Shown here: positions 31,431 to 64,000 of the stretch, in pieces
Position numbering within the stretch: the stretch's first letter is position 1
Layout: the number at the start of each line of letters is the position of its first letter
IMG/VR virus record: IMGVR_UViG_3300033075_001920
From: a virus
Lineage: Duplodnaviria; Heunggongvirae; Uroviricota; Caudoviricetes
DNA length: 64,000 bases
Reading direction: 5' to 3' (one strand)
Program-made: the position numbers and the translations under genes
The notes under the pieces: model-generated
What the model was told of the DNA's origin: nothing
What the model saw: only the letters and a program-made list of their open reading frames with translations
Databases searched by the model: none

Positions 31431-31789
31431 AACAGAAGCAGATTATATTGCAGGTTCAGAACAATATGAGCATTCAGGCTCCCATATCTCTTTTTGGCGG
31501 TATGTTTGACCCAAATGGCAATACAGTTAATACGCACAACCGCTGGGCATGGGATATCAGTGCTCAGACTTACGTAGGACTATCATTGTTCCAGTTGCAA
31601 TATAGAAGAGTAGGGGTAATTCCCTATACCACCATCAGCATGCCTGTACCGGGCAATTTTGCAGATGTAATCCGGATTTTAAATTTACAAGGTCTTGGAA
31701 CGTTTTGGGCTGTAAGTTTGATTCTGCCACCACTGATGATTTATACTATGTCCGATACTCTGCAGTTTAATCAGCTTTCAATAGCATAG
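31427..31789 (+). CDS. hypothetical protein
   Basis: 120-aa ORF, the last gene of the + block. It converges with and overlaps the - strand methyltransferase end by 23 nt. Confidence 0.45.
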   Translation: MKQKQIILQVQNNMSIQAPISLFGGMFDPNGNTVNTHNRWAWDISAQTYVGLSLFQLQYRRVGVIPYTTISMPVPGNFADVIRILNLQGLGTFWAVSLILPPLMIYTMSDTLQFNQLSIA

Positions 31790-33011
31790 CCTCATATTGT
31801 TCGATTGCTTTTGCAATTTGCATAAACACTTGTGGTACAATTGCATTACCGCCTGCCTTTATAGATTGTTCTCTCCACCGTGTAAAGGTTTTTTTTGGTT
31901 TTACGTTGTTTCTTCTTGGGTCTTGATAAACGGCAGTAGGGTCCAATCGGGAGGGAATCCCATCATTTCCATCACAAAAAGGGGAGACAGTTGGCCACTC
32001 GTCCCAGTATGATCCTGCATTACTGCGCAGAGATAATCCTTTTCTGACATGTGTACATGACTCTTTGAGTTTAGCGGTCCTACTCCCTTCCACTCCGATG
32101 CTCGAGGGGTTGGAATTAGCCCATTTTCTTTCAAAACTGTTTTCAAGGCTTTGCCCCCTTGTGCGAAATTTGTGTTTCTGTCCGCCCCCGATGTTGGCGT
32201 CGGAATTAGTCCCTGTATTTGAAGATATTCCAAATGGCTCTCTAAGTATGACATTGCGACTAAATGACCCTTTCTTTCCGCTCTGGTATGGTATCCTTCC
32301 TGTCCGCCAACTCGAGGAGTTGGAATAAGACCGTGCATTATTGTGTCTGTCAGATTCAAACTGTGGCTGTTGCCGTTTGCCGCTTTTCTGCGTCCAGTTT
32401 TTGTTAATTCCGCTTTGGGGTGTGGAGTTTCTTGTGTTGTTACTGTAGGCAATAAACCAGACTCTATATCTCCGGTGGGGTGCTCCGACACCAGCAGCTG
32501 GAAGTACAAACGGGAGAACCTCATATCCTTCGGACTCGAGCTGCTGCGTCTGATCACTGTCTTTGAACGCAGCTCCCAAGTCAGCTTGCACCTCGTCGAA
32601 GACCATCCCGGCATTCCAATTAATAAGCCCGAGAACGTTCTCGCCCACGACCCAACGGGGACGAACCTCTCGAATGACTCTAAGCATCTCTGGCCAGAGG
32701 TGGCGTTCATCCTCTTTTCCTTTTTGTTTTCCTGCGACTGAGTAAGGTTGGCATGGTCATCACGGGAACCCTCCGACGAGAACAATGTCATTTGTCCTCC
32801 AGAGGGTTCCTTTTGTTTTTGAAATTTCTTCATTTAATTTTTGGTAATTGAGAGTATGAATATCGTCATGATGATAAGCATCAGGCCAATAGTATTTTAG
32901 TAGATGTCTGCAAAAAGGATTTATTTCGCATGAGGATAGAACTTCCCAACCTAAGGCAGAAGCCCCAAGTTCAAACCCACCCATTCCGGAAAAAAGGCTA
33001 ATTAATTTCAA
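31767..33011 (-). pseudogene. DNA (cytosine-5) methyltransferase, interrupted by in-frame tandem TGA-TGA inside motif IV
   Basis: Motif I FSGMGGFELG and GGFP, then TGA TGA (32757-32762). The same frame continues PCQPYSVAGKQKG, ENV, GAPHRRYRVWFIAY and GNAIVPQV. A second frame carries GLIPTP repeats and MGFPPDWT. Confidence 0.75.
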
Positions 33012-33603: not shown

Positions 33604-34290
33604 TTATTTCTTGTAGAAATACTTTGGAGTAGAATCCGGCACATCCAGCATCTTTGGTTTAATCTTTTTAAGCTTGAAGAAGTCCTTACAAGCTTTTTGA
33701 GCACCCTCCAAAGCCCAATCGTCGATAATAATGATTCCTCCTTTTGAAACAAAGGGATATAGGTTCATTAAAGCATAAAGGGTAGGATCGTAAATATCCA
33801 TATCCAAACGTAGGATAGAAATAGCCCCTATTTTATTAATTGTCTGCGGGAGGGTATGTTGTATCCATCCTTCGACCAATTCAATGTCCAGTGAGCCATA
33901 AAGACCCCAATCGGTTAAATTTTTGATTACCTGCTGGCGGGATACGGAGGTAACACCACTGGATTTCAGAAGTTCCTCTTCAGGTACATTGACATCGTGG
34001 GTGATAGTACCTATACCTGGCTGTTCTTTATCATTCTTACCGGCAAGCTGAATTCCCTGAAAAGAGTCAAAACCCCAGAATTTTCTTCCCGATGGTCCTC
34101 CGGCGTCAAGTACACCGAGCATCATACTGGCAAAGTTTCCTGCTGCAGCCACTCCGCATTCAATAATATCTCCGGGAATGTTTTGCTCAATGATTTCTTT
34201 ACCACACTGGTAGCTGTGCAGCTGAGTTTGTTTGGTTGAATAGACATACTGTCCGATACGGTCCAGTTTTGCCTGAGTATTTATATCCAT
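33604..34290 (-). CDS. TylF/macrocin-O-methyltransferase-like class I SAM methyltransferase
   Basis: IECGVAAAGN (SAM-binding loop) and ISILRLDMDIYDPT...GGIIIIDDW match TylF-family hallmarks by eye. Confidence 0.6.
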   Translation of the reverse strand: MDINTQAKLDRIGQYVYSTKQTQLHSYQCGKEIIEQNIPGDIIECGVAAAGNFASMMLGVLDAGGPSGRKFWGFDSFQGIQLAGKNDKEQPGIGTITHDVNVPEEELLKSSGVTSVSRQQVIKNLTDWGLYGSLDIELVEGWIQHTLPQTINKIGAISILRLDMDIYDPTLYALMNLYPFVSKGGIIIIDDWALEGAQKACKDFFKLKKIKPKMLDVPDSTPKYFYKK

Positions 34291-34383: not shown

Positions 34384-35010
34384 TTAGAATAATTTCAACT
34401 GTTTTTTGTATTGATTGAACCTTTTAACACCAGCATCAAAATAAGTAGTATTTATTTCGCATATATCTAAATCATATCCCATTTCATCGCAGGCAATAGC
34501 AATACTCATTGAACCTCCATGTGTATCTAAAATTTTAGCATTTGCAACACCTGACCCAAATTTATCAAGAAGGTACTTATACAATTTGACCGGTTTTTGT
34601 GTAGGATGGATTTTATCTTCATTTGTCCTTACAGTTGATTGTCTAAATATTTTTGATGGTTTGTCAAACGAAGTCCATGCATATTCTGCTGCGCTAAAAT
34701 TTTCAAAAGGCTGTTCTTTATCCCATATAACAAAACATCTGTTAGGAGGAAGATCGAAGTAATTCCCCCCCCATATAATTTGATTCTTTGAAACCCTAAA
34801 CAATTCGTTAAAATATTCTTCACTTGGCGCGGTATCCCATTCTTGAATATTACCTCTATTTAAAATTCTGTTTTTTAATTTACCGCTCCCTTGAGAAGAG
34901 CTTTTTGGCATTCCATATGGAGGATCGACAATTGCTAATTCATAAATCTTATCTTCTTTTCCTTTCAAGAAATCCATAGCATCGACATTGTAAAATTCAA
35001 TATTGCTCAT
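34384..35010 (-). CDS. DNA methyltransferase, N6-adenine/N4-cytosine (beta class, DPPY)
   Basis: IVDPPYG (motif IV) comes first, then HPTQKPV and LDTHGGSMS (motif I). Confidence 0.8.
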   Translation of the reverse strand: MSNIEFYNVDAMDFLKGKEDKIYELAIVDPPYGMPKSSSQGSGKLKNRILNRGNIQEWDTAPSEEYFNELFRVSKNQIIWGGNYFDLPPNRCFVIWDKEQPFENFSAAEYAWTSFDKPSKIFRQSTVRTNEDKIHPTQKPVKLYKYLLDKFGSGVANAKILDTHGGSMSIAIACDEMGYDLDICEINTTYFDAGVKRFNQYKKQLKLF

Positions 35011-35441: not shown

Positions 35442-35689
35442 TGTATATTTTTCCCCCGAATATCTTTAATTAAATCTTCCTCAAATCCATTTTCCTTAAG
35501 TAATTTAATGGCATCAGTATATGCTTTCACTAGTTTTTGGTTATCAATCACAGCCAGATTGTAAAATGTGGGATGAATCTCATCCTTTCGTTGTTCCATC
35601 CGTAATGCAATATCTTTTACTGCATCCAAGTGCTCTTTAAGGGATTTTATCGGTCCGAGTGGATTTTTAATTGAACTTTTACCGTACAT
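35438..35689 (-). CDS. hypothetical protein
   Basis: 83-aa ORF. Confidence 0.45.
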   Translation of the reverse strand: MYGKSSIKNPLGPIKSLKEHLDAVKDIALRMEQRKDEIHPTFYNLAVIDNQKLVKAYTDAIKLLKENGFEEDLIKDIRGKNIH

Positions 35690-36473
35690 AGGGGAATTGT
35701 CTTATTTTTAAACTTTCAGGAAAATTATTTATGTCATTGCCGTGGCGATCTGAGCCAAGTTGCAATTTTTGGGCAATATGGGTACCAAGCTGCTTTACAA
35801 AGACCGGTACACCCATAGACTGACAATGACCAGCGATAGACTGAATCCATTCTACTTCACATTTGCGGTACCGGTATTTACCGTTTTCATTTCCGGATTC
35901 CCCGCCTATGATTACCCAGTCAATTGTGCCAATTTCAAACTTTCTTGTATTGTCAAGAAATTTGTCAAGCCAGAAAGAAAATAAATCCACCGGCCCTATA
36001 AGAGGTTCGCAGCTCAGGAATCTAACCTTTGCCGGCACCGAAAGAAGCGTAGGGATTCTCTTTCTGGCAAACTCATCATTTTCAACAGAAACGCCTAACC
36101 AGACATTATTCCATCCATCGCCCCAGTCGGGGGGTAAACATTGAAGTATTCTATCTTCACGTTTGGTAAGAATCTGCCAAATAAGATCAGGACGGGAGCG
36201 AATGATATCCCATGCAGCCGGCCTCCACTGGTCAGCTTCTTCTATAAAGAAGTCAGACCAAGAGCATGTAAATATCTTATCTCCGGGCTTTGCCTTACGC
36301 AGTACCTCATTGATAGTTTTTTGCTTTACCTGGATAACCTGTGATGGATCCAGCCCATATCTTTCCTTATCCCGGTACATATAGCAAAATTTACATCCAG
36401 GCGATGTCTTGCGGCATCCTGTCCAAAAGTTCAAGGTATGATCAGTCCATTCAATGGAGGAGTTGGTTGTCAT
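35679..36473 (-). CDS. phage Gp37/Gp68 family (DUF5131) protein
   Basis: The N-terminus SIEWTDHTLNFWTGCRKTSPGCKFCY is the characteristic IEWT...GC...GC..CY signature. Also WVIIGGESG. Confidence 0.7.
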   Translation of the reverse strand: MTTNSSIEWTDHTLNFWTGCRKTSPGCKFCYMYRDKERYGLDPSQVIQVKQKTINEVLRKAKPGDKIFTCSWSDFFIEEADQWRPAAWDIIRSRPDLIWQILTKREDRILQCLPPDWGDGWNNVWLGVSVENDEFARKRIPTLLSVPAKVRFLSCEPLIGPVDLFSFWLDKFLDNTRKFEIGTIDWVIIGGESGNENGKYRYRKCEVEWIQSIAGHCQSMGVPVFVKQLGTHIAQKLQLGSDRHGNDINNFPESLKIRQFPYVR

Positions 36474-43049: not shown

Positions 43050-44570
43050 TTATAATTTTTCCGGTAATGTTTGCCCTTTAATCTTCGCATATCTCTGCAT
43101 AAGTCTGGCCCAGACGTTTTCATCTTTGAACTTTAAGTGCAGGCTTCCTTTCATATATCCCTTAATTTCAAAGAAACCCCAATCCATCCACTTGCCAAAT
43201 TCAGATTTCTGTTCTACAATTTCAAGTTCAACACCTACTTTGGCAGCCTCCTGCTTTACATGAACCAGCGAATCGTATTTATCTTCGTGCAGGTATTTAT
43301 ATTCTCCCCATGATCGGATAAACTGTCCGTCTTTTTTAACATGGAATGAGTACCTTGTTAAATTGTACAAATCCGGTATGGTGTCATAGTCAATTCCTTC
43401 ATTGGCGGCAATAACCTTTACAAGGTCATTTAAGCGCTGTGCGTTCGAATAAGAACTGTGGGCGGATTTGGCGTACATACGACCTACTTTGTATCCTTTT
43501 TCAGTCATGTAGTCAAGGATGAATTTTTTGTTCAACATATAACCGGAATTGGTTTTCCATCCTTCTACGTTGTAGCGGTTTTCGTGCGTATGGCGCGTAA
43601 AGTTATCGACGGCCTCTTCCAAAGCTTTATTAAAAATCTGGTCTTTGGTCCCACGGATAATATCAAACATTTTGTAGATATTTCTCATAGTGAAAGGGAT
43701 TTGAGTCTGAGTTTCTACAAACTTATTGATTTCACCAATTACACCAGCAGTGAGATACTTAGACATATTCATTTCATTGAATAAATGCTCCCATGCTTTC
43801 TTCTGAAGTGCTTTTTTAAACTCGTCATGCGTACATACAGTATCGTTGTACCCAACTTGGAAGGTAAAACCACCCACGCCGAAAGGAGCGGTATACTTGT
43901 TCATTTTTTTATTTAATTCCAAATGCTCATCAAAGCACTTTACAGAGCCGATATATCTTTGGACAATATCACGAACATAATTGTATTTCATGATTCCTTC
44001 CCTTGCCGGTCCTTCGGGTTCTTCCTCGAGAAAAAATCCATCAAATTCATTGTTTTCATCTGCAGGCTTGAATAAGCGTATTAAGCCGACATGGACATCG
44101 GTACTGCGCTCAGCATCTGAAAAGGGATTACCTAAGTTTTCAAGACTTCCATATGATTCAATAATTGGAAACAGTTCCTGTGCTGCAGTTCTATACTGGT
44201 TTTTAATGCTGCTATGGTTTACCAGTGAAACAATTTCACATCCTGCAGGAGCAATCTTCCATGCATGCAAAATATGGGCGCAATCGTTGGAAAAAGGAGG
44301 ATTCATAACTATAGCCCCAATATGGCTTACTTCATTAGGAACTACCTGTAAAAAGTCGTTTTTCAAAAACTGAGCTTTACTACTGATAATTTTAGCAAGA
44401 TCCATATGAATTTCACAAGCCAAAACTTTTGCCCCATAGCTTTTAAGCACATCTACAATGTTACCTTTACCGGCTGATGGCTCTAAAACAGTTTTACCAT
44501 TTACGTCCATTCCATGCAGCATTGTATGTATGGTATTTTCGGGGGTTGGATAGAAATCTGAATTAAACAT
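43050..44570 (-). CDS. N6-adenine DNA methyltransferase (gamma class, NPPF) with large C-terminal domain
   Basis: FYPTPENT, VLEPSAGKGN (motif I) and IVMNPPFS (motif IV), followed by ~300 aa of unassigned domain. Confidence 0.7.
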   Translation of the reverse strand: MFNSDFYPTPENTIHTMLHGMDVNGKTVLEPSAGKGNIVDVLKSYGAKVLACEIHMDLAKIISSKAQFLKNDFLQVVPNEVSHIGAIVMNPPFSNDCAHILHAWKIAPAGCEIVSLVNHSSIKNQYRTAAQELFPIIESYGSLENLGNPFSDAERSTDVHVGLIRLFKPADENNEFDGFFLEEEPEGPAREGIMKYNYVRDIVQRYIGSVKCFDEHLELNKKMNKYTAPFGVGGFTFQVGYNDTVCTHDEFKKALQKKAWEHLFNEMNMSKYLTAGVIGEINKFVETQTQIPFTMRNIYKMFDIIRGTKDQIFNKALEEAVDNFTRHTHENRYNVEGWKTNSGYMLNKKFILDYMTEKGYKVGRMYAKSAHSSYSNAQRLNDLVKVIAANEGIDYDTIPDLYNLTRYSFHVKKDGQFIRSWGEYKYLHEDKYDSLVHVKQEAAKVGVELEIVEQKSEFGKWMDWGFFEIKGYMKGSLHLKFKDENVWARLMQRYAKIKGQTLPEKL

Positions 44571-55419: not shown

Positions 55420-55704
55420 ATGAATAAAATCGAATTATTAAGCCAAGGCAAACCGATAATAACATCAGAGAAAGGGAATTCTATGTCCCCGAGAATACTA
55501 TCCGGACAAAAACATGAATTAACTCCATGTACACTGGATGATATTATTGTGAATGATATCGTATACTGTAAAGTGCATGGTCGGTTTTATACCCATCTTG
55601 TTAAAGCCAAAGATCCGCTAAAAGGAGTATTGATTTCCAACATGAAAGGCAGAATTAATGGATGGACAAAAAATGTATATGGCAAGGTAACAAAAGTACT
55701 ATAA
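55420..55704 (+). CDS. S24 (LexA/signal-peptidase-like) peptidase-fold mini-protein
   Basis: EKGNSMSPRILSGQ resembles the G-[DN]-S-M-x-P Ser motif and a later LVKAK supplies a candidate Lys. At 94 aa it has no DNA-binding domain. Confidence 0.35.
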   Translation: MNKIELLSQGKPIITSEKGNSMSPRILSGQKHELTPCTLDDIIVNDIVYCKVHGRFYTHLVKAKDPLKGVLISNMKGRINGWTKNVYGKVTKVL

Positions 55705-56222
55705 TGGCAAAAGTAAAAACATATCTGTTTGAAAATATGCATTTAGCTTCCAGTCAAACTATTGAGTTTGTAAAAAGTATCGATCATGAATACGTAGAAA
55801 TTGATACTGAAACAGGAGAATATAGGAGGGAGCGTGATTTTTATACTATGCAGTTACTTATTAATCCGTCTATAGAAAATATAGTCAGCTGCTCCGATTT
55901 TCTTAATATTATGGGACATAAAGCAGAATACAGTTTTCATCGGAGAGATGGTGAGAATAGATACCTTCAAATAGAGCATTTTGCATGGTTAATACGCATT
56001 GCTCTTAGAATAAGAGAAGAAAATAGGTCAAAACACTTAACCATTCATCTTAATTATTTTGGAACTGATTTTTTGCAAGACCTCAAGGATGAAGTATTCG
56101 GAGAAAATACAAAAACTCATTTAATGCTAATTTTAAGACAACAAACAAATGTTACTTTCAAAATTTACAGTGAATATAAATTAGTGAAGACCCTTACAAA
56201 AGAAGAAGACCTTGAACTATAA
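55704..56222 (+). CDS. hypothetical protein
   Basis: The ATG at 55704 (MAKVKTYLF) overlaps the previous TAA. The track start at 55662 overlaps by 43 nt. Confidence 0.45.
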   Translation: MAKVKTYLFENMHLASSQTIEFVKSIDHEYVEIDTETGEYRRERDFYTMQLLINPSIENIVSCSDFLNIMGHKAEYSFHRRDGENRYLQIEHFAWLIRIALRIREENRSKHLTIHLNYFGTDFLQDLKDEVFGENTKTHLMLILRQQTNVTFKIYSEYKLVKTLTKEEDLEL

Positions 56223-56422
56223 TGGCAAAAAAACTAAAAGACTTATCAAGCTATACAAAGCCACAGAACTGCACCGATATAAACGATGCTACTTTGGGGC
56301 TATTAGAACTCACAAACTTCGTTAGGAACGCAAAAAACCCGCCAAAAACAGCATACATTCGAATTAATAAACTTAATCAAAAGATTCAACTATGGAACAA
56401 GAAATTCAACCAAATGTCTTAA
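56222..56422 (+). CDS. hypothetical protein
   Basis: 66-aa ORF. Confidence 0.4.
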   Translation: MAKKLKDLSSYTKPQNCTDINDATLGLLELTNFVRNAKNPPKTAYIRINKLNQKIQLWNKKFNQMS

Positions 56423-56730
56423 TTAAAGCTCAGGTAATGCACTTCCGCAAACCAAAGGGGCAGAATAGCCCAATTTGGCAGAAGTCCGGCTTTAAGGTAT
56501 TTCTATTAACCATCAACCCTGATTACATAGGAAGTCAGGCAATACTTGCAGTAAAGGCTATTGAAGATGTTTTAGAAGATGCAGGCAATCCAAACACTAA
56601 GTTTGTCTACCACGAGCATGAATTCCTTACACATGAAAGCCATTTCTTAAATCCTGATCTGTTTGAAAAACACTTTCAGGAGCGCTTTAAAGCTTATCGC
56701 GAAAAAAAGACACAATCACAAATCAGCTAA
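56392..56730 (+). CDS. hypothetical protein
   Basis: 112-aa ORF. The true start may be the internal MHFRKPKG. Confidence 0.4.
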   Translation: MEQEIQPNVLIKAQVMHFRKPKGQNSPIWQKSGFKVFLLTINPDYIGSQAILAVKAIEDVLEDAGNPNTKFVYHEHEFLTHESHFLNPDLFEKHFQERFKAYREKKTQSQIS

Positions 56731-57420
56731 ATGAATACCAACGATCAACTACGCCTGTTTGGCGAACCAACAACACCGGCCACTGATACAAGAGTACAAA
56801 AGATTGATATCAGCGTATTATCAGCTCATGACATGCTGGGTATGCTGCTTAAAAAGCTAAAACAACCAGGCAGTGTTGATGCGCCTTTGGATGCAATTTT
56901 ACAAGCAGCTCAGGATATGTTGGACTTTGTGCCCAAAGAGCCGGCTCCGGTTACTTTAAGGGATGCCAGAGAAGAAGTCTTTTCTATGCGCACTCAGGGC
57001 ATCAAATGTCCTTGCTGCGATCAGTTTGCCAAGGTATACCGGCGCAATTTGAATTCAAGTATGGCTTCCGGGTTAATCCGTTTTTATATGGCCACTCAGG
57101 ATATCAATAAATTTCATCATGTGCCTACAGTGTTTACCAGAATGAAGATGAACTTTATGAATACCGAATTTTCAAAACTTAGGTACTGGGGACTGGTTGA
57201 GGAGCAGACAAGTGATGATGTTCAGGAAAAGAAAACTTCCGGATACTGGAGAGTTACCGAGAAAGGCCGCGATTTTGCCTTGGCTATGATTACGGTACCT
57301 AAATACATTTACCTTTACGATTCTCAGATTTGTGAAAACTTTTCAGACCCTACCCAGATTGATATCAATCAAGCTTTGGGCTCGAGATTCAACTATCAGG
57401 AATTAATGAGGGCAATTTAA
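56731..57420 (+). CDS. zinc-ribbon plus winged-helix-like putative DNA-binding protein
   Basis: CPCCDQ...YRRNLNSSMASGLIRF...LRYWGLVEE...GYWRVTEKGRDFA. Lies immediately upstream of a PP-loop protein. Confidence 0.4.
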   Translation: MNTNDQLRLFGEPTTPATDTRVQKIDISVLSAHDMLGMLLKKLKQPGSVDAPLDAILQAAQDMLDFVPKEPAPVTLRDAREEVFSMRTQGIKCPCCDQFAKVYRRNLNSSMASGLIRFYMATQDINKFHHVPTVFTRMKMNFMNTEFSKLRYWGLVEEQTSDDVQEKKTSGYWRVTEKGRDFALAMITVPKYIYLYDSQICENFSDPTQIDINQALGSRFNYQELMRAI

Positions 57421-57423
57421 TCT

Positions 57424-58350
57424 ATGACAGAAACCAAGCCAATAGCGCTCACAGTTGTATCGTTCGGTGCCGGTCAGGACACAATCTATTTTGTGCACAG
57501 ACTTTTAAACGACCAGACTTTCTACGATAGACACGTAAAGGGCGATCTTGTTATTGTTGGCTCGGATACCGGCAATGAGCACCCGCATACTTACCAAGCC
57601 ATTCATCATATAAAAGAATTATGCAATGGCCGGTTTGGATTTTTCTGGCTTACTCCTGACATGGGCTTTCATCCTATTACCTGGCAGAGCCTTACATATC
57701 AATATAAATTGAACAGCAGATGCGGCTCAGCTGCATTTCCTCAGACCTGCACAGACAATTTAAAGGTCAAAGTGGTAGATAATTTTGTCGAATGGTATAT
57801 TGGCAGGATGTATCTAAACATTGAACTTCCTCAATTTGTTAACCGCAAATATGTAGGTAGTAATAAGAAAAACTACCATCAATTCTATGAGAATCATGGT
57901 AAGATAAGGCTTATTTTAGGCTTTGCCGATCAAGAGGAGAGCCGGACAAAGAACGGTAATAAGTTTGATCCTGTTTGGAAAAAAAAGGTAATAGAAAGAT
58001 ATTATCCTCTTATTGAAGACAAAACAGACCGTCAGCAGGCTATTGATTACAATGAAGCCAATATTGAAATGAAAATATTCCCGAGCAATTGTATGATTTG
58101 TTTCTATTCATCCGATCAGGAAATACTTTGGCTTTACCGGAACTATCCACAGGTATTCTATGAGTGGGTGGATATCGAAAAGAAAAAGCTCGAAAAAAGT
58201 GCTGACAAAGAAAAGAATTATGGGGTATATGGGAAAATTACCCTGCAGCAGAAATTAGAAAAGGCTGAGAAACTTTATGGGCATTGGTCCGACGATCAGC
58301 TCACTGAATATAAATACTCCCACGGACATTGTATAAAATCAAGATATTGA
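57424..58350 (+). CDS. PAPS reductase-like (PP-loop ATPase fold) protein with degenerate P-loop
   Basis: VVSFGAGQDTIYF sits in place of SGGKDS. Also VGSDTGNEHPHTY (DTG.E.P.T) and QTCTDNLKVKVV (WCT..LK-like). Confidence 0.5.
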   Translation: MTETKPIALTVVSFGAGQDTIYFVHRLLNDQTFYDRHVKGDLVIVGSDTGNEHPHTYQAIHHIKELCNGRFGFFWLTPDMGFHPITWQSLTYQYKLNSRCGSAAFPQTCTDNLKVKVVDNFVEWYIGRMYLNIELPQFVNRKYVGSNKKNYHQFYENHGKIRLILGFADQEESRTKNGNKFDPVWKKKVIERYYPLIEDKTDRQQAIDYNEANIEMKIFPSNCMICFYSSDQEILWLYRNYPQVFYEWVDIEKKKLEKSADKEKNYGVYGKITLQQKLEKAEKLYGHWSDDQLTEYKYSHGHCIKSRY

Positions 58351-58352
58351 AT

Positions 58353-58841
58353 ATGATAAAAATTTTACCGGAACAACAGATGCAGGTATACGCCAGATAT
58401 TGGGGCTGTAAATATTTACTTACAATAAATATTGAAGGCAATCCGGTTGTTCAAACTTTAAGAAGTAGATTCATGTTAGATTTAGAACCTGATTTAGAAA
58501 ACAGACGAGATCTTATTTTAGTCAGAAAAATCGAAAATATAACAGATGAGCATGTATGGGATCTTCTAGCATTGCTTCATGAAAATGAAGAAACAAAAAG
58601 AAAAGACGAAGCTTTGCATTATGGAATAAAATCAGCAATTATTAATGGCTTTCCTAATGCGTGGAAATGGAATTACTGGTCAGCGGTCAAAATCTATACA
58701 TTTCTTATTTCAAAAGGCTACAATATGCCAACATTTATTGGATTTAACGACGTCAAAAGCACTCCGCTGGATTTAGGGATGGCTATTGATGTAGATGAAT
58801 TAAATAAAACTCTTCACCCTCAATACAGAATAACATTATGA
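58353..58841 (+). CDS. hypothetical protein (paralog family with C-terminal ..GMAIDVDEL)
   Basis: The ATG at 58353 follows the previous TGA. The C-terminus FLISKGYNMPTFIGF...LDLGMAIDVDEL resembles ORF 37032. Confidence 0.45.
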   Translation: MIKILPEQQMQVYARYWGCKYLLTINIEGNPVVQTLRSRFMLDLEPDLENRRDLILVRKIENITDEHVWDLLALLHENEETKRKDEALHYGIKSAIINGFPNAWKWNYWSAVKIYTFLISKGYNMPTFIGFNDVKSTPLDLGMAIDVDELNKTLHPQYRITL

Positions 58842-59188
58842 ACTTGGAAGAATTTAATGAAAAACTAAAAAAGCTGATTGAAGAATCCGGTGAGGGGTTT
58901 ACTTTTGGCTTTATAATCTCCTGTATACAGGGCTTACCTGGTAGAGATGCAAAGGGAAATAAGGCAGAGCAGATTCTGCTGTTCAATATCAGACATTCAG
59001 AGCTTTACTATAGTTTACGCAACATAATGGACAATAACGATCAGATGGCTAAGGTAATTTTGGATGTAGCCTTAGGCTATATGGCTGAAAAGAATATCGA
59101 GCCGGTCCTTCCTAATAATAATGGGGAGGGTGAAATTGGCTTGCCGATTATGATGATGCCGGGAAAGAAGGATAAATATGTTAATTAG
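58838..59188 (+). CDS. hypothetical protein
   Basis: 116-aa ORF. Confidence 0.45.
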   Translation: MNLEEFNEKLKKLIEESGEGFTFGFIISCIQGLPGRDAKGNKAEQILLFNIRHSELYYSLRNIMDNNDQMAKVILDVALGYMAEKNIEPVLPNNNGEGEIGLPIMMMPGKKDKYVN

Positions 59189-59196
59189 CAATAATT

Positions 59197-59460
59197 ATGG
59201 CAAAAACATTTAATAAAGAACAAACCGGCAATACTCAGGCACAACCAGATATCATTCATATTGTCGATTATAAGGGGCAAAAGGAAACAAATATCATATG
59301 GGATAGAACCAGGGATGTTGTATACAATGGAGACCAATTACAAATGAATACATATTCATGTTCAAGTTGTGAAAAAGTTTACTATTTCGAACAAATAAAA
59401 CATAGTTTCTGTCCTTTTTGTGGCATAAAATTCAAATACGAAACCGATGTTTCAGTATAA
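59197..59460 (+). CDS. zinc-ribbon protein
   Basis: 87 aa with CSSC...CPFCG. Confidence 0.5.
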   Translation: MAKTFNKEQTGNTQAQPDIIHIVDYKGQKETNIIWDRTRDVVYNGDQLQMNTYSCSSCEKVYYFEQIKHSFCPFCGIKFKYETDVSV

Positions 59461-59508
59461 AATCGATAACTAAATAATTCAAATCAAAAATAAAAAATCA
59501 AATTAATC

Positions 59509-60342
59509 ATGAACAATACCACAACAATCGCAATCATTATCATTGTCTGTCTTCTTATTATCATTTATTGGAAGAAGATAGTAATCAAAATTCTGTCTTT
59601 CTACACAGCGACAGCCATCACTTTGCACACCGCAAAACTCAATGCAAAGAAAGAAAAAAAACCGATTCCTACGCTTACACCTCTTGACCATTTTGCTAAC
59701 CATGCACCGGCTTGTCCGCACTGGTTTGAACCAAAAATGGCAAGAAAGAGTCCAATTATACGCAAGCATCCCAATATGGGCTCCATTGGTCCAGTTACTC
59801 TCCCCAGCGGTGAAATATTGTCGGAAGATGAGGCTCGCAAATATTTAGATGTTCATTATTCCGAAGATGGTGAATGGATCCAAAATCCAGAAGTGGTAAA
59901 TTTGGATTTATGGGGGAAGTACATTACTCTACCGGAAGGATTTAAGGAGTACATTGACAATTATGTTGCCGAATGGGATAAGGAATGTAAGGCTCATCAG
60001 AAATGGTCAAACGATTATGAACTTCAAAGGAATGTCCAGTGGAGATATTATTTTGCCTCTGCAATGGAAGTTCAATCAAAGAAACAGACTACCCAAAATG
60101 ATTGGTTAATCTTACTTGGGGCATTCTCTTCTCTTTTATCAACCATATCTGCAAAAGACGTAATTGAAAAGTATACTAAGAAAGCCGAATCACATGAATC
60201 TCCAATTGAAGAAAATGAAAAAGCCGAATCAAACGCCAAGCTCGAACCATTACCAGATGAAGTTACTGAGCCTGAAAATACTCTATCCCCTACAGATCAG
60301 AAGCCGGAAGGTATAGACGATAAGGCTTTGGAAAATCAATAG
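59509..60342 (+). CDS. N-terminally anchored membrane protein
   Basis: 277 aa with helix TIAIIIIVCLLIIIYW and an acidic C-terminal tail. Confidence 0.5.
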   Translation: MNNTTTIAIIIIVCLLIIIYWKKIVIKILSFYTATAITLHTAKLNAKKEKKPIPTLTPLDHFANHAPACPHWFEPKMARKSPIIRKHPNMGSIGPVTLPSGEILSEDEARKYLDVHYSEDGEWIQNPEVVNLDLWGKYITLPEGFKEYIDNYVAEWDKECKAHQKWSNDYELQRNVQWRYYFASAMEVQSKKQTTQNDWLILLGAFSSLLSTISAKDVIEKYTKKAESHESPIEENEKAESNAKLEPLPDEVTEPENTLSPTDQKPEGIDDKALENQ

Positions 60343-60377
60343 GAAAATTTGACGTTACAAACTATATAAAAAGTATC

Positions 60378-60719
60378 ATGACTGATCACGAATACCTCGT
60401 AAAGAGCACCATTTTCCGGATATACAACCCAACCACAGTTTTTGTTAAATATGGTCGCGGAATCTGCGATTGTAAAGGCTTTATCATATTGGAAGGAAAG
60501 CATAGGCTATATCTTGATATAAATGGCGGGGAATGGGTGGATATTGAAGAAGTTAAATTAATATTAAGGTCTGGCAGATTTACAAATACGATAGAAACCC
60601 ATTGGAATCTGATTAATCAGGGATATTCAATTCCTGTGAGTGTTCCGGGTGAAAATGGGGCAATCCAGATGGTAAACCCTATTGATATTCCTGATTTAGT
60701 AGTTTTAAAAACAGAATGA
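60378..60719 (+). CDS. hypothetical protein
   Basis: 113-aa ORF. Confidence 0.45.
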   Translation: MTDHEYLVKSTIFRIYNPTTVFVKYGRGICDCKGFIILEGKHRLYLDINGGEWVDIEEVKLILRSGRFTNTIETHWNLINQGYSIPVSVPGENGAIQMVNPIDIPDLVVLKTE

Positions 60720-61348
60720 ATCGAAATTATCAATTTAAAGTAGGTCAAAAGGTCAAGATGCTGGATGAAAGCATATTGGAAGAATGGTGGATGCATGGAG
60801 AAGTTGAAGGTATTTGTTCTGATGCTGTTTTCATCCTTTTTGAAGGGGAAACTGAGTCAACCAGGGTAGAGCCAGCCAACTTCAATTTGATCAGGTTCTT
60901 AAATTGTATTACAATAGGCAAAATAGGTATGTCTACTTATTACCAACCATTTGGATTTGTGGCAAGTTCTGATGTTACTATTCTAAAACCTAACTTTCAA
61001 ATGAGTGTTTATACTGCAATGTTTATAGTATCAATATTGAGTATGGATAAATATAAATGGAGTTATGGACGACAAATACGATTAAATGATTCACAAAAAT
61101 TGTCTGTGATGTTTCCTGTAAATTCTGATGGAGAACCAGATTGGAATTTTATGGACTATTACATAAAAAGTCTACCATATAGTAAAAATTTAGATTCTAT
61201 AAAGCATATTAGTAACGCTCCATTGTCTGATGAACAACTTGTTTCAAAATATGAATCAGGGGGAATTGAATTAGCTACCGCGATGGAACCTATGTTACAA
61301 ACACCAAGCAATTCATCAACACTAAAAAAATCAAAGAAAAAGACCTAA
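60716..61348 (+). CDS. type I S-subunit TRD-like (specificity-domain-like) protein with N-terminal SH3/Tudor-like extension
   Basis: GKIGMSTYYQPFGFVASSDVTILKP...YTAMFIVSIL...KWSYGRQIRLNDSQKLSVMFPVNSDGEPDWNFMDYYIKSL resembles a half HsdS target-recognition domain. Weak call made by eye. Confidence 0.3.
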   Translation: MNRNYQFKVGQKVKMLDESILEEWWMHGEVEGICSDAVFILFEGETESTRVEPANFNLIRFLNCITIGKIGMSTYYQPFGFVASSDVTILKPNFQMSVYTAMFIVSILSMDKYKWSYGRQIRLNDSQKLSVMFPVNSDGEPDWNFMDYYIKSLPYSKNLDSIKHISNAPLSDEQLVSKYESGGIELATAMEPMLQTPSNSSTLKKSKKKT

Positions 61349-61398
61349 AATTTAGGTTTATTTGGTACACTAAACTATATAATTGCCTAAATAAAAAT

Positions 61399-62217
61399 AT
61401 GATTATACATGGATATTCTGAAAAAGAATTACTAAAGATAGCTGATAGTAGTATTGATTTAATAATAACATCACCACCATACGCGGATCGTCGAAAAAAA
61501 ACATATGGTGGTATATCAGAGGATGAATATGTAGAATGGTTTAAGCCTATTGCTATTCAAATAAAAAGAATTTTAAAACCCTCAGGTAGTTTTTTTTTAA
61601 ATATAAAGCCACACACCAACAATGGAGAGCGAAGTTTATATGTCTTTGATTTAATACTCATGCTCACCAGGGAATTAAAATTTAGATTTTGCGATGAATT
61701 TTGTTGGACAAAATTGGGCGTTCCAGGTAGATTTAAAGGGCGTTTCAAAAATGCCTTTGAACCTATATATCATTTTACATTAGAATCTGGATATAAACAC
61801 AATCCATATAGTGTTGCTGAAAAAGCAAAAGAGACTTCAATAAAAAGATATAAAAGAAAAGCATGCGGGGAAAGTAAAAATGGTAGCGGCTTTGCTGGTA
61901 TGCGAAAAGAAATTACTAGCCATCTTGCACTACCCAGCAATCATTTACATATTCCACAAAAATCTAATCAATATACCATTGAAAAAAAACATTCAGCGGT
62001 TTTTCCAGTTGCACTATCTAGTTTTTTTATAAAAGCCTTTAGTGATGAAGGTGATACAATTTTAGATTGTTTCGGAGGAAGTGGAACGGTTGCTATATCG
62101 TGTATTGAAACAAATCGAAACTATATTATAATTGAAAAAGAGAAGGCGAATGTAAAATTGATTAACAAGCGAATAAAAATGAAAATTGGGTTGGATAAAA
62201 ATAATAACGATATTTGA
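61399..62217 (+). CDS. DNA methyltransferase, N4-cytosine/N6-adenine (beta class, SPPY)
   Basis: LIITSPPYA (motif IV), HSAVFPVAL and ILDCFGGSGT (motif I). Confidence 0.8.
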   Translation: MIIHGYSEKELLKIADSSIDLIITSPPYADRRKKTYGGISEDEYVEWFKPIAIQIKRILKPSGSFFLNIKPHTNNGERSLYVFDLILMLTRELKFRFCDEFCWTKLGVPGRFKGRFKNAFEPIYHFTLESGYKHNPYSVAEKAKETSIKRYKRKACGESKNGSGFAGMRKEITSHLALPSNHLHIPQKSNQYTIEKKHSAVFPVALSSFFIKAFSDEGDTILDCFGGSGTVAISCIETNRNYIIIEKEKANVKLINKRIKMKIGLDKNNNDI

Positions 62218-62224
62218 ATTATAC

Positions 62225-62880
62225 ATGAACTTACTCGAATTATTCGCTGGTAGCCGATCTATTGGTAAGATTGCGGAAAAACACAATATAAATGTTTTCA
62301 GTTCGGATATTGAACCATTTACTGATATTGATTATGTTGTAAATATTCTTAATTTTGATTGCTCCAAAGTGCCATTTATTCCCGATATAATATGGGCATC
62401 CCCCCCCTGCACTTTCTTCTCTGTGGCATCAATTGGGCGGCATTGGCACATCAATAATACCCCGAAGACAGAAAACGCTGTCTTGGGCGTTAAAATCGTT
62501 CAGAAGACAAGAGATATTATTGAATACTTTTTAAAATTGAATCCTGATCTTATTTGGTTTATGGAAAATCCGCTTGGCAAATTAAGAAAATTACCGGTTG
62601 TGGAAGGTTTGCCTCGGGCGACAATTACTTATTGCAGCTATGGAGATACCCGCATGAAACCAACGGATATTTGGTCCAACCATATTTAATTTATGATTCA
62701 AAGTTCAGATTGAATGGATGGAAGCCAATTGAAAGGTGCCTGCCATCAACTCAAACATGTCATCATGAAAAGGCGACTAGGGGAAGCAAGACTGGAACGC
62801 AAGGTCTGAAAGGATCATATCTTCGAAGTAAAATACCAGAAAAATTGTGTGAGGCAATTATTTCGTCTACATTGGCATGA
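62225..62880 (+). pseudogene. small DNA (cytosine-5) methyltransferase, frameshifted
   Basis: LELFAGSRSIG (I), ASPPCTFFS (IV, PC) and FMENP (VI) in one frame stop at TAA 62687-62689. The conserved tail (RLNGWKP..C..TCHHEKATRGSKTGTQGL...IPEKLC) continues in the -1 frame. The break is at a short T-run (62685-62687). Confidence 0.7.
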
Positions 62881-62899
62881 CTATTGGACATAATAATGT

Positions 62900-63865
62900 A
62901 TGACTGGAATGGAGTCTTATGATAAATACATTGTTGCCTTCTCTGGTGGCAAGGATTCAACGGTATGTTTCTTACATCTGCTGGATCTCGGAATTCCAAA
63001 AGAAAAGATTGAATTATGGCACTGTCTGATTGATGGTAAAGGACCGGTCTATATGGATTGGGAAGTTACCGAGGACTATTGCAGAAAATTTGCGGAAGCT
63101 TTCGGGGTTAAAATTTACTTTGCATGGAAGGAAGGTGGTTTCAAAAAGGAAATGTACAGAGAAAATGCTCTGACAGCTCCAACCACATTTGAAATTCCGG
63201 AAGGCGGAACTAAGACTATTGGAGGCGTCCGTGGCAAACTCACCACAAGGCGTAAATTTCCGCAGGTAAGCCCCGATCTGAATGTGAGATGGTGTAGTGC
63301 CTATCTGAAAATAGATGTGTGCTCTGCTGCCATCAGAAATCAGTCAAGGTTTGACGGATTAAAGACAATTGTGATATCCGGTGAGCGCGGGGAAGAATCT
63401 GCTGCCCGTGCAAAATATGCTGAATTTGAAGTGGATAGGGCGGATGGAAGAAATGGCAGAGGAAAGCGGCACGTCGATCGCGGCAGGTTGATAAAGGATT
63501 GGACCGAGGCTCAGGTATGGGATATCATATCAAAATACAAAGTTGTGGTGCATCCATGTTACTATATGGGATGGTCAAGGTGCAGTTGTAAGTTCTGCAT
63601 CTTTGGCAATGCTGACCAATTTAAATCAGCCTACACGGTTTCTCCGACTCAGGGGGAACTGCTTATATCAGCCGAGGAAGAATTCGGTGTCACAATGAAG
63701 CGGAAAGGTTCTATAAGGGATTTGGTGAGTGCTGGCAATGATTACCCGGGCATATCATCAAGCACAATCGAACTAGCCACCAATCACATCTATACCGGCC
63801 AGATATTTACTCAGCAATGGAATCTTCCAATGGGAGCATTCGGAAATGGATGTGGACCATCTTGA
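62900..63865 (+). CDS. PAPS reductase family (PP-loop ATPase) protein
   Basis: IVAFSGGKDST (SGGxDS PP-loop), VRWCSAYLKIDV and a C-terminal Cys cluster (CYYMGWSRCSCKFCIF). Confidence 0.7.
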   Translation: MTGMESYDKYIVAFSGGKDSTVCFLHLLDLGIPKEKIELWHCLIDGKGPVYMDWEVTEDYCRKFAEAFGVKIYFAWKEGGFKKEMYRENALTAPTTFEIPEGGTKTIGGVRGKLTTRRKFPQVSPDLNVRWCSAYLKIDVCSAAIRNQSRFDGLKTIVISGERGEESAARAKYAEFEVDRADGRNGRGKRHVDRGRLIKDWTEAQVWDIISKYKVVVHPCYYMGWSRCSCKFCIFGNADQFKSAYTVSPTQGELLISAEEEFGVTMKRKGSIRDLVSAGNDYPGISSSTIELATNHIYTGQIFTQQWNLPMGAFGNGCGPS

Positions 63866-63893
63866 TTTGAAATCTCGAAAAGTTTCTGGACCG

Positions 63894-63918
63894 GCCGCCT
63901 GATGAGGGCGGTTTTTTT
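63894..63918 (+). terminator. rho-independent terminator
   Basis: CCGCC (63895-63899) pairs with GGCGG (63907-63911), extendable by G-U pairs, followed by T7. Confidence 0.6.
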
Positions 63919-63946
63919 ATGCCGGGATGAAATGGTTTCCCGGCAT
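63919..63946. other. perfect 9-bp stem hairpin at the right edge of the AT-rich element
   Basis: ATGCCGGGA (63919-63927) and TCCCGGCAT (63938-63946) with a 10-nt loop. Sequence to the right becomes GC-rich. Confidence 0.55.
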
Positions 63947-64000
63947 TCAAAGTGTCCGTCAGGCAGCGAAGAAGTGAGAGAGCATCGCGCGCACGCCCTG

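What the first reader, a model, noticed from the sequence alone, without database searches (positions are those of the whole stretch)
62225..62880. Both cytosine-5 methyltransferases are broken while all three N6/N4 methyltransferases are intact
The second, small C5 methyltransferase has motifs FAGSRSIG, SPPCTFFS and ENP. It terminates at TAA 62687-62689 and its conserved tail continues in the -1 frame. Restoring one T in the run at 62685-62687 (ATTTAA to ATTTTAA) would give ...IWSNHILIYDSKFRLNGWKP.... Together with the tandem-stop gene at 31767-33011, both m5C enzymes are disrupted by small, reversible-looking lesions. The DPPY (34384), NPPF (43050) and SPPY (61399) enzymes are uninterrupted. 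This pattern would be expected if m5C is counter-selected in the current host, for example by an McrBC or other type IV system. It would also fit homopolymer-based on/off switching.
Basis: partly seen in the sequence, partly recalled or inferred. Interest (0 to 1): 0.5.

Follow-up and report, generated by a model that had tools for sequence, protein, structure and literature searches.

The report
One broken methylase, one recoded methylase
Only the small cytosine methylase gene is truly broken, by a private 5-base duplication; the "tandem stop" in the other one is a conserved feature of about 50 related phage genes that ribosomes probably skip, so the two do not show that cytosine methylation is being selected against.

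Summary

(1) Small gene, 62225-62880. It is a roughly 216-aa phage C5-cytosine methyltransferase with a frameshift private to this genome. The best model is a 5-bp tandem duplication, ATTTA|ATTTA at 62684-62693, not the loss of one T. 78 of 80 relatives and thousands of protein homologues are single-frame. The tail is undecayed, so the lesion is recent. A second assembly carries the same bases.

(2) Large gene, 33011-31767, minus strand. It is not privately broken. [quoted passage not shown] Its "P**P" is a variant of a conserved mini-insert, [stop][YYN] or [stop][stop][CCN], placed exactly between the Pro and Cys of motif IV. I found it in about 50 contigs. No real methylase gene with such an insert has a sense codon in the first position. 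Both sides of the stop are under purifying selection in the alpha frame. My leading but unproven mechanism is a 6- or 9-nt ribosomal hop of peptidyl-tRNA-Pro that restores GGFPCQPYS.

The three N6/N4 enzymes are uninterrupted ORFs. Counter-selection of m5C and homopolymer switching are not supported.

The parts
62225..62689 (+). Small C5-cytosine MTase gene, frame-0 part. 154 codons plus TAA. Motif I-like FAGSRS, motif IV SPPC, motif VI-like ENP.
   Evidence: phrog_757, E 2e-20; P0001 is this exact 154-aa product
62684..62693 (+). The lesion: an exact tandem duplication ATTTA|ATTTA (+5 nt), which moves the tail into the +2 (= -1) frame.
   Evidence: The same bases are present in an independent Logan assembly.
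62686..62880 (+). Undecayed C-terminal third of the small MTase, in the shifted frame, ending at TGA 62878-62880. It keeps the family-invariant G, P, C, CHH, A.RGS, GTQG, Y.RS..P..L residues.
61399..62217 (+). Uninterrupted SPPY N6/N4 DNA MTase directly upstream of the small gene.
   Evidence: PF01555, E 1e-41, profile positions 1-221 of 221
62900..63865 (+). PAPS-reductase-like (PP-loop) gene directly downstream of the small gene.
31767..33011 (-). Alpha frame of the large C5 MTase. TTG start at 33011, motifs I-VIII, a low-complexity linker, then motif X (GNAIVPQV).
   Evidence: PF00145, 131.7 bits once the stops are removed
32754..32765 (-). CCG TGA TGA CCA. Pro take-off codon, two stops, Pro landing codon, lying between the P and the C (TGC 32753-32751) of motif IV. 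A conserved mini-insert.
31901..32833 (-). Beta ORF (310 aa) nested in the +1 frame of alpha. A leader overlapping motifs IV-VIII, LLPT/LIPTP repeats, and the motif-IX-like LSPLFVMEMMGFPPDWT.
   Evidence: phrog_1008; more than 1000 homologues
34384..35010 (-). Uninterrupted DPPY N6/N4 MTase ORF (208 aa).
43050..44570 (-). Uninterrupted NPPF MTase ORF with DUF4942 (506 aa).

Best explanation
Two unrelated phenomena were read as one pattern.

(A) Small gene, 62225-62880. It encodes a small (about 216 aa) phage C5-cytosine DNA methyltransferase. In this genome a private 5-bp tandem duplication (ATTTA|ATTTA, 62684-62693) has inactivated it. The product ends after 154 residues and lacks the conserved C-terminal third, which holds the Cys/His cluster, the RGS.TGTQG segment and the last helix. 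The tail shows no decay, so the event is recent and could revert by loss of one repeat copy. Shown: the frameshift, that it is private to this genome, and that the tail is intact. Inferred: loss of activity.

(B) Large gene, 33011-31767. It is an M.EcoHK31I-type two-polypeptide C5 methyltransferase. The alpha frame encodes the large catalytic domain: motifs I-VIII, then an unconstrained linker, then motif X. The nested +1-frame beta ORF encodes the repeat-rich target-recognition part and the motif-IX-like end. Its two in-frame TGA codons belong to a conserved mini-insert placed exactly between Pro and Cys of motif IV. The form is CCN, then one or two stops, then a codon with pyrimidines at its first two positions, then TGY. 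I infer that a fraction of ribosomes carrying peptidyl-tRNA-Pro fail to terminate, slide 6 nt (9 nt in this window), re-pair on the CCN/CUN/UCN landing codon and resume at Cys. That would make the canonical GGFPCQPYS enzyme at a reduced level. Shown: conservation of the insert, an always-stop first codon, an otherwise intact gene, and purifying selection on both sides. Inferred: the hop mechanism.
For: Small gene
- The restored protein matches more than 8000 proteins. The best 120 are 212-250 aa, 61-70% identical, at 98-100% coverage. It also matches phrog_757 over residues 1-214.
- 78 of 80 IMG/VR relatives are single-frame. The two other disrupted ones are disrupted elsewhere.
- Removing one ATTTA copy gives a gapless alignment to the closest homologues.
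- The fold is C5-MTase: Foldseek probability 1.0 to DNMT3A/B, M.HaeIII and M.HhaI.
- The Logan contig is 100% identical, lesion included.

Large gene, two frames
- Frames alpha and beta are both open in 82 of 82 loci. The third frame is open for at most 61 codons.
- In synonymous-shuffle controls, beta stays open in about 4% of shuffles and alpha in about 0.1%. Observed: 62 of 62.
- The wobble position switches alpha / beta / alpha along the gene.
- GenBank annotates the same nesting in Paenibacillus phage Shelly: gp56 is labelled 'g55 internal gene'.
- M.EcoHK31I has beta inside alpha in another frame, with motif IX on beta (PMC2836561).

Large gene, the stop insert
- Two-codon inserts: all 27 real IMG/VR cases and all 26 real metagenome cases are stop + YYN.
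- Three-codon inserts: 7 IMG/VR loci (6 distinct sequences), 4 of them (3 distinct) with double stops, one with the same 9 nt as the window.
- No real methylase gene has a one-codon insert.
- In 20 complete members the only alpha-frame interruption is this stop.
- Within all-insert clades, pN/pS is 0.19 upstream of the stop and 0.31 in the non-overlapped alpha tail downstream, at pS 0.7-0.8.
- Short bypasses and a two-codon hop have precedents (PMC10732093).
Against: Small gene
- Read-level support was not examined. The JGI and Logan assemblies may come from the same reads.
- One homologue (P0119) has a longer loop at this position, so the +T model cannot be excluded.

Large gene
- No product was observed.
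- No conserved stimulatory RNA structure was found. Hairpin z-scores ran from -2.1 to +1.4, and the window's own sequence does not form the common hairpin.
- An SD-like GGAGG is present in the window but is not conserved in relatives.
- CUN and UCN landing codons need a G.U pair.
- Pyrimidine at the first landing position can also be explained by Asn/Asp conservation in the beta frame.
- Insert-bearing and insert-less alleles are interleaved in the tree (14 all-insert clades). Frequent gain and loss could therefore inflate the apparent purifying selection 'in the presence of the stop'.
- The window's alpha also starts with TTG, where the relatives checked have ATG.
- AlphaFold gives only a low-confidence model for beta alone (pLDDT 60).
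Confidence: 0.66

Rival explanations
1. Both m5C methyltransferases were recently knocked out because m5C is counter-selected in the current host (McrBC or another type IV system), or they are switched on and off through slippage-prone tracts.
For: Both C5 genes are interrupted while three N6/N4 genes are not. The small-gene lesion is recent and revertible. Insert-bearing and insert-less alleles of the large gene interconvert over evolutionary time.
Against: The large-gene stops are an old, widely shared element kept under selection. There is no homopolymer or multi-copy repeat at either site. The host is unknown, so type IV systems cannot be examined. With one private lesion left there is no pattern to explain.
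Confidence: 0.1
2. The stops in the large gene are true terminators and alpha is not made in insert-bearing phages. The insert is an evolutionary 'off' allele, or a device that ends alpha translation just after the beta start. It is exchanged between alleles by recombination or lost by precise deletion, and that exchange keeps the flanks looking selected.
For: Double stops are hard to read through. The stop lies only 10-26 codons downstream of the conserved beta start. The alleles have a mosaic distribution. No stimulatory RNA signal was found.
Against: Purifying selection in the alpha frame holds both upstream and far downstream of the stop within all-insert clades, at near-saturated synonymous divergence. 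There are no secondary lesions in 20 complete genes. The codon after the stop is restricted to YYN although the beta frame tolerates seven different residues at that position.
Confidence: 0.2
3. The frameshift in the small gene is a sequencing or assembly artefact, and the gene is intact in the real phage.
For: The tail is perfectly preserved. Only one sample is known.
Against: A 5-bp duplication is not a typical homopolymer error. Two different assemblies, the 132-kb JGI contig and the Logan SRR32380200 contig, agree base for base over 8167 nt.
Confidence: 0.1
4. The small gene is expressed despite the shift, either by programmed -1 frameshifting or as two cooperating polypeptides, as in split C5 MTases.
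For: Split C5 MTases exist, for example M.EcoHK31I. The tail frame is open and conserved.
Against: There is no slippery heptamer at CAT ATT TAA. There is no ATG or GTG for the tail in its frame; the first TTG lies 8 codons inside it. The arrangement is absent from 78 of 80 relatives and from thousands of homologues.
Confidence: 0.04

Closest known systems
M.EcoHK31I, a natural alpha/beta C5-cytosine methyltransferase (Lee, Kam & Shaw 1995, as described in PMC2836561)
   Same: The beta polypeptide is encoded entirely inside the alpha gene in another reading frame. [quoted passage not shown] The N-terminal part of beta is dispensable there. Here, likewise, the beta leader evolves mainly as the shadow of alpha.
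   Different: Here the repeat-rich variable region (LLPTP repeats) is selected in the beta frame, while the corresponding alpha segment is an unconstrained linker. In M.EcoHK31I the TRD is assigned to alpha. Sequence homology to M.EcoHK31I was not tested. A subset of the phage genes also carries a stop-containing insert in motif IV.
Programmed translational bypassing or hopping: T4 gene 60 (50 nt), candidate 10-nt bypasses in Streptomyces phage Hau3 terminase, and the two-codon hop in E. coli (PMC10732093 and references therein)
   Same: A stop immediately 3' of the take-off codon. Take-off and landing codons readable by the same peptidyl-tRNA. Both ORF halves in the same frame and both conserved. 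The element sits in a phage DNA-metabolism gene.
   Different: The gap is only 6 or 9 nt. No conserved stem-loop, nascent-peptide signal or SD-like signal could be shown. The landing codon is often only near-cognate (CUN or UCN). There is no experimental evidence.
Small single-domain phage C5 methyltransferases (PHROG phrog_757; named 'site-specific DNA-cytosine methylase' in JGI records)
   Same: The restored 62225-62880 product is a full-length member, 61-70% identical to the best 120 of several thousand homologues, with a C5-MTase fold.
   Different: This copy is frameshifted after residue 154. The family scores below the Pfam PF00145 threshold and has no solved relative detectable by sequence.
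Out-of-frame elements hidden inside phage methylase genes (ShiLan domain with a hidden HNH endonuclease, PMC11855218)
   Same: A segment is kept free of stops in the methylase frame while its real coding frame is a different one.
   Different: That element is a mobile homing endonuclease. Here the hidden frame encodes part of the methylase itself.

Membership tests
C5-cytosine DNA methyltransferase (small gene) | Catalytic Pro-Cys dipeptide (motif IV), AdoMet-binding motif I, and motif VI ENV | tested here: met
   SPPC is invariant in alignments A1 and A2. FAGSRS and ENP are variant forms of FxGxG and ENV, conserved across 51 homologues.
C5-cytosine DNA methyltransferase (small gene) | Three-dimensional fold of C5 MTases | tested here: met
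   AlphaFold model of homologue P0009 (69% identical; pLDDT 84, pTM 0.85). The listed top PDB matches (50 shown of 79 at E <= 0.001) are almost all C5 DNA MTases: DNMT3A/B/C, M.HaeIII and M.HhaI, plus DNMT2 and a prophage 'putative DNA modification methyltransferase' (probability 1.0, E about 1e-6).
C5-cytosine DNA methyltransferase (small gene) | Pfam PF00145 gathering score | tested here: not met
   11.9 bits against a cut-off of 22 for the restored protein. The fragments give no hit. PDB sequence search: none.
C5-cytosine DNA methyltransferase (small gene) | Uninterrupted reading frame and enzymatic activity | tested here: not met
   The frame is broken at 62687. Activity cannot be tested with these tools.
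M.EcoHK31I-type two-polypeptide C5 MTase (large gene) | Beta ORF lies wholly inside the alpha gene in another frame, and the arrangement is conserved | tested here: met
   82 of 82 loci have both frames open. Shuffle controls give 4% and 0.1%. The same nesting is annotated in phage Shelly.
M.EcoHK31I-type two-polypeptide C5 MTase (large gene) | Alpha carries motifs I-VIII and X; beta carries motif IX | tested here: inconclusive
   Alpha matches PF00145 positions 1-207 and has GNAIVPQV. For beta, LSPLFVMEMMGFPPDWT joined to alpha's motif X matches PF00145 positions 278-323 only weakly (12 bits, E 0.13). The wobble pattern shows that this segment is selected in the beta frame.
M.EcoHK31I-type two-polypeptide C5 MTase (large gene) | Both polypeptides are needed for methylation | not testable with these tools
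   Needs co-expression and a protection assay.
Programmed translational bypass (hop) | A stop or slow codon directly after a take-off codon, and a landing codon readable by the same tRNA directly before the resume codon | tested here: met
   CCN, then one or two stops, then CCN/CUN/UCN, then TGY, in all real inserts whose first codon is followed by one landing codon or by a second stop plus a landing codon: 53 two-codon cases and the double-stop cases. Two three-codon variants (L279 TGA TGG TCA; L287 TAA GGA CCG) have a sense codon in second place. The window reads CCG TGA TGA CCA TGC.
Programmed translational bypass (hop) | Both sides of the gap are under purifying selection in one frame, with no other lesions | tested here: met
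Programmed translational bypass (hop) | Stimulatory signals (stem-loop, nascent peptide, SD-like element) | tested here: inconclusive
   A weak hairpin that puts CCN and the stop in its loop appears in many members but not in the window. Its z-scores are not significant.
Programmed translational bypass (hop) | Junction peptide lacking the gap-encoded residues | not testable with these tools
   Needs mass spectrometry or a reporter assay.
Phase-variable methyltransferase | A long homopolymer or multi-copy short repeat within the ORF whose length varies | tested here: not met
   T3 and two copies of a 5-mer in the small gene. The large-gene site is TGA TGA. Relatives show no length-variable tract at the small-gene site.

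The most novel reading that the evidence does not exclude
A clade of phage alpha/beta C5-cytosine methyltransferase genes carries a programmed two- or three-codon translational hop. Peptidyl-tRNA-Pro would jump over one or two stop codons placed exactly inside the catalytic Pro-Cys motif, so that only ribosomes that bypass precisely make active enzyme. This would be a built-in throttle on a potentially toxic methylase. It would also be a large natural series (about 50 alleles, with 6- and 9-nt gaps and cognate or near-cognate landing codons) for studying short-range bypassing.
Probability: 0.35. Interest if true: 0.8.

Novelty: new variant of a known kind. Interest (0 to 1): 0.6.

Why it matters
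For genome annotation. In-frame stops in this methylase family should not be scored as pseudogenes, and the nested beta ORF should be called. In this window the large gene would otherwise be written off as dead.

For the biology of recoding. A conserved stop inside the Pro-Cys catalytic motif, kept for long evolutionary times with selection on both sides, is a strong candidate for a new natural case of short-range ribosomal bypassing. Its many natural variants make the mechanism directly testable with a 60-nt reporter cassette.

For phage-host biology. The inference that this phage has 'shed' m5C because of type IV restriction loses its basis. At most one m5C specificity, that of the small enzyme, has been lost.

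Tried and rejected
Searches and tests that led nowhere
- Pfam on the two halves of the small gene: no hit.
- PDB sequence search with the family profile: none.
- blastn of 61300-64000 against cultured phages: none.
- Exact-pattern search for sister alleles of the small-gene lesion in metagenome contigs: none, and the source contig is not in that collection either.
- tRNA scan of the window for suppressor tRNAs: none.
- A general alternative genetic code: rejected. The window is densely packed with standard-code ORFs, and all three stop codons occur at the insert site.
- Stop-codon read-through: disfavoured by the double stops TAA TGA and TGA TGA.
- +1 slippage of tRNA-Pro into the beta frame: rejected as a general mechanism, because the take-off codon uses all four CCN codons and only CCC could re-pair.
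- Re-initiation after the stop: there is no in-frame start before the Met of LWPEM, and the ATG or GTG formed by xxR-TGC opens only a 15-17-codon ORF in the third frame.
- A single alpha-beta-alpha polypeptide made by two programmed frameshifts: rejected, because it does not explain why both frames stay open over their whole length.
- An alpha/beta/alpha chimera scored no better on PF00145 than alpha alone (127 against 132 bits), although it aligned end to end.
- AlphaFold of beta alone was too poor for a fold search (pLDDT 60).
- RNA hairpin and SD-like stimulators: not significant or not conserved.
- PHROG scan of six overlapping ORF pairs elsewhere in the window, looking for other split genes: uninformative.
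- Literature searches for a described stop in motif IV of phage C5 MTases found nothing in the held library.

Full report
**The observation.** The small gene starts at ATG 62225. It reads MNLLELFAGSRSIG...IWASPPCTFFS...FMENP...PTDIWSNHI and stops at TAA 62687-62689. The rest of the family sequence (...YDSKFRLNGWKPIERCLPSTQTCHHEKATRGSKTGTQGLKGSYLRSKIPEKLCEAI...) continues in the -1 (= +2) frame to TGA 62878-62880. On the minus strand, 33011-31767 reads ...VGGFP**PCQPYSVAGK..., with TGA at 32762-32760 and TGA at 32759-32757. The SPPY (61399-62217), DPPY (34384-35010) and NPPF (43050-44570) genes are uninterrupted ORFs. The SPPY protein matches the full PF01555 profile, the DPPY protein only its C-terminal part, and the NPPF protein matches DUF4942.

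**What the small gene is.**
- Neither half reaches Pfam significance, and the restored protein scores only 11.9 bits on PF00145.
- The restored protein matches PHROG phrog_757 ('DNA methyltransferase') over residues 1-214, E 6e-25.
- It has more than 8000 database homologues. The best 120 are 212-250 aa long, 61-70% identical, and cover 98-100% of the query.
- An AlphaFold model of a 69%-identical homologue (pLDDT 84, pTM 0.85) finds C5-cytosine DNA methyltransferases as nearly all of its top PDB matches: DNMT3A/B, M.HaeIII and M.HhaI, Foldseek probability 1.0.
- I conclude it is a minimal C5 MTase.

**The lesion in the small gene.**
- The break falls just after the strand PTDIWSN. It removes a third of the protein, including residues invariant in 51 homologues (C, C.H, R-G, Q-G, Y.RS..P..L) and the last helix. 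Loss of activity is inferred, not shown.
- The T run is only three bases long.
- The sequence CAT ATTTA ATTTA TGA contains an exact 5-bp tandem duplication at 62684-62693.
- Deleting one copy gives DIWSNHIYDSKFRLNGWKP. This aligns without gaps to the closest homologues, which have ten residues between DIWSN and GWKP.

**The small-gene lesion is private and recent.**
- In 80 IMG/VR relatives, 78 genes are single-frame. One is cut off by a contig end. One carries a stop within the match (L259). One is frameshifted about 25 residues further on (L274).
- The lesion is therefore private to this genome.
- The tail is undecayed, which indicates a recent event.
- A Logan assembly of run SRR32380200 is 100% identical to window 55634-63800, duplication included. 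That argues against an assembler artefact. It does not exclude that the two assemblies share reads.

**The large gene holds two reading frames.** Frame alpha contains motifs I-VIII (PF00145, 131.7 bits once the stops are removed), then about 170 low-complexity residues, then ...GNAIVPQV. Frame beta is alpha +1 and runs 32833-31901 (310 aa), entirely inside alpha. It reads ...SGQRCLES...WARTF...GLLPTVTTQE..., followed by three LIPTP repeats and LSPLFVMEMMGFPPDWT.

**Evidence that both frames are kept.**
- Beta has more than 1000 stand-alone homologues of 250-360 aa. The best is 48% identical, E 2e-70.
- In L001 plus 80 IMG/VR loci and the window, both frames are open across the same DNA in 82 of 82 cases. 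The third frame is open for at most 61 codons.
- Synonymous-codon shuffles that keep the driver protein leave beta open in about 4% of trials and alpha open in about 0.1%. The observed figure is 62 of 62 distinct sequences.
- The most variable codon position switches along the gene. It is the alpha wobble through motifs I-VIII, the beta wobble through the repeats and MGFPPDW, and the alpha wobble again around motif X.
- The first ATG of beta lies 32-77 nt upstream of motif IV in 55 of the 61 sequences where it could be located.

**The nesting has a published precedent.** From established knowledge of M.HhaI (Cheng et al. 1993), the large domain of a C5 MTase is built from motifs I-VIII plus X, and the small domain from the variable region plus motif IX. 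The two frames here therefore correspond to the two structural domains. This architecture has been described before. [quoted passage not shown] GenBank annotators of Paenibacillus phage Shelly also marked gp56 as 'g55 internal gene'. The nesting is therefore a known kind, although apparently far more widespread in phages than is recognised.

**The tandem stop is not a private lesion.**
- Other loci have a stop at the same spot: GGFP*LCQPYS (CCG TAA CTA TGC), GGFP*PCQPYS (CCT TAA CCG; CCT TGA CCA), and others.
- I scanned IMG/VR for any two codons between the P and C of motif IV. This returned 33 hits, of which 27 lie in real methylase genes. In all 27 the first inserted codon is a stop and the second is CTA, CCA, CCG, CCC, CCT, CTT, TCA or TCG.
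It gave 26 more real cases, all stop + YYN. The single exception has junk flanks.
- A three-codon scan gave seven real loci (six distinct sequences). They are TAA TGA CCT (two identical loci), TAA TGA CCC, TGA TGA CCA (the same 9 nt as the window, in a different background), TGA TGG TCA and TAA GGA CCG.
- A one-codon scan gave no hit in a real methylase gene.
- The double-stop variants have otherwise intact alpha and beta frames.

**The stop has been retained under selection.**
- In 20 complete insert-bearing genes, the programmed stop is the only interruption between motif I and motif X.
- Within clades in which every member has the insert, pN/pS is 0.19 for the non-overlapped N-terminal part (pS 0.72, 17 pairs).
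- For the non-overlapped alpha tail downstream of the beta stop, pN/pS is 0.31 (pS 0.80, 12 pairs).
- At that divergence a neutral codon would have been randomised. Yet the first inserted codon only ever changes among TAA, TGA and TAG.
- The stop is therefore selected, and alpha is evidently translated on both sides of it.

**How the stop may be passed.** These steps are inferred.
- Read-through is unlikely, given the TAA TGA and TGA TGA tandems and the use of all three stop codons.
- No suppressor tRNA is encoded in the window.
- Re-initiation has no in-frame start codon before the catalytic Cys.
- The context fits a short translational hop. It consists of a Pro codon (all four CCN codons are used), then the stop(s), then a codon with pyrimidines at positions 1 and 2, then TGY (Cys).
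- Peptidyl-tRNA-Pro (anticodon NGG) can re-pair with CCN perfectly, and with CUN or UCN through one G.U pair. Resuming at Cys recreates the canonical GGFPCQPYS.
- From general knowledge, a C-terminal Pro and a pyrimidine after the stop both slow termination.
- Short bypasses (10 nt in phage Hau3 terminase) and a two-codon hop in E. coli are documented (PMC10732093).

**Weaknesses of the hop model.**
- I could not show a conserved stimulatory hairpin, and the SD-like GGAGG in the window is not conserved.
- Pyrimidine at the first landing position is also explained by Asn/Asp conservation in the beta frame. The second position is not explained that way, because beta shows seven different residues there.
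- Insert-bearing and insert-less alleles are interleaved in an NJ tree: 27 of 149 distinct sequences carry the insert, in 14 all-insert clades confined to one part of the tree. Repeated gain and loss, or recombination, is therefore part of the history.
- The window's alpha starts with TTG.

Only one private, recent lesion remains, the one in the small gene. The large gene conforms to a conserved and probably recoded architecture. The contrast 'both m5C genes dead, all N6/N4 genes alive' is not there. With it goes the argument for counter-selection of m5C by a type IV system. That idea remains untested, because the host is unknown. Neither site has the tract structure of a phase-variable methyltransferase.

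**Verdict.** The finding as written is partly right on observation and mostly wrong on interpretation. The small-gene frameshift is an ordinary recent inactivation. The unexpected result is the conserved stop inside the catalytic motif of an EcoHK31I-type nested methylase. I rate it a new variant of known kinds (nested alpha/beta C5 MTase; translational bypass) and worth an experiment.

Noticed in passing
window 31901-32833 (-) inside 31767-33011 (-): A complete 310-aa ORF lies in the +1 frame of the C5 MTase gene. Both frames are kept open in 82 of 82 related loci, and selection switches alpha / beta / alpha along the gene. This is the M.EcoHK31I-type alpha/beta architecture, apparently widespread in phages of Bacteroidota and Paenibacillus.
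   Followed up: yes
window 33009-33011 (-): Alpha of the large MTase begins with TTG, three bases after the stop of the upstream gene. The relatives checked begin with ATG (M[IL]H...). This may mean weak initiation or translational coupling.
   Followed up: no
window 31889-31896 (-): An A8 homopolymer (CCAAAAAAAACC) lies in the alpha frame directly after the beta stop codon. It is the only slippage-prone run in the gene.
   Followed up: no
L034 (alpha, between motifs I and II); L036; L055: Other interrupted alpha frames with beta intact. L034 reads WMG**TLAW, where two adjacent codons (W and K in relatives) are replaced by TGA TAG. L036 reads GK*DERHLW. L055 reads FDLA*EWMG. The tandem stop in L034, apparently made by two substitutions, is odd.
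   Followed up: partly
protein P0137 (Logan, 1009-nt contig): A single ORF fuses the alpha N-terminus (motif I ... ILTGGF) directly to the beta frame (HASHTQ...MGFPPDWT), at exactly the motif IV site. It could be a 1-nt deletion, a sequencing error, or a hint that frame switching happens at this site.
   Followed up: no
L293, alpha N-terminal region: This double-stop allele (the same TGA TGA CCA as the window) has an extra segment in alpha upstream of motif IV containing ...WMCVDCHFEWHKNNK.... It looks like an HNH-type insertion. Compare the hidden HNH elements in phage methylases (PMC11855218).
   Followed up: no
L274 2570-3261; L259: Two other disrupted copies in the small-MTase family: a frameshift after ...PCHVSAP in L274 and a stop within the match in L259. 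They lie at positions different from the window's lesion, so inactivation in this family is sporadic.
   Followed up: partly
window 33604-34290 (-), 35679-36473 (-), 62900-63865 (+): Further DNA-modification-type genes sit among the MTases. One ORF looks TylF-like to me and matches phrog_6608 'methyltransferase'. One ORF with N-terminal Cys motifs looks like Gp37/Gp68 (DUF5131), by eye only. One is a PAPS-reductase-like PP-loop protein. Bacteroides phage BKO1-TP3 has the same neighbourhood of alpha/beta MTase, PAPS reductase and N6 MTase.
   Followed up: partly
window 55634-63800 = L300: A Logan assembly of SRA run SRR32380200 reproduces this stretch at 100% identity. The run could be used for read-level checks.
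   Followed up: partly
alpha motif VIII / beta first repeat, window about 32440-32460 (-): The +1 reading of the motif VIII strand (VWFIAY or LWIVAY) is GLLPT, the same motif that is repeated in the beta variable region (LIPTP/LLPTP). This may hint that the repeats arose by duplication of this overprinted segment.
   Followed up: no
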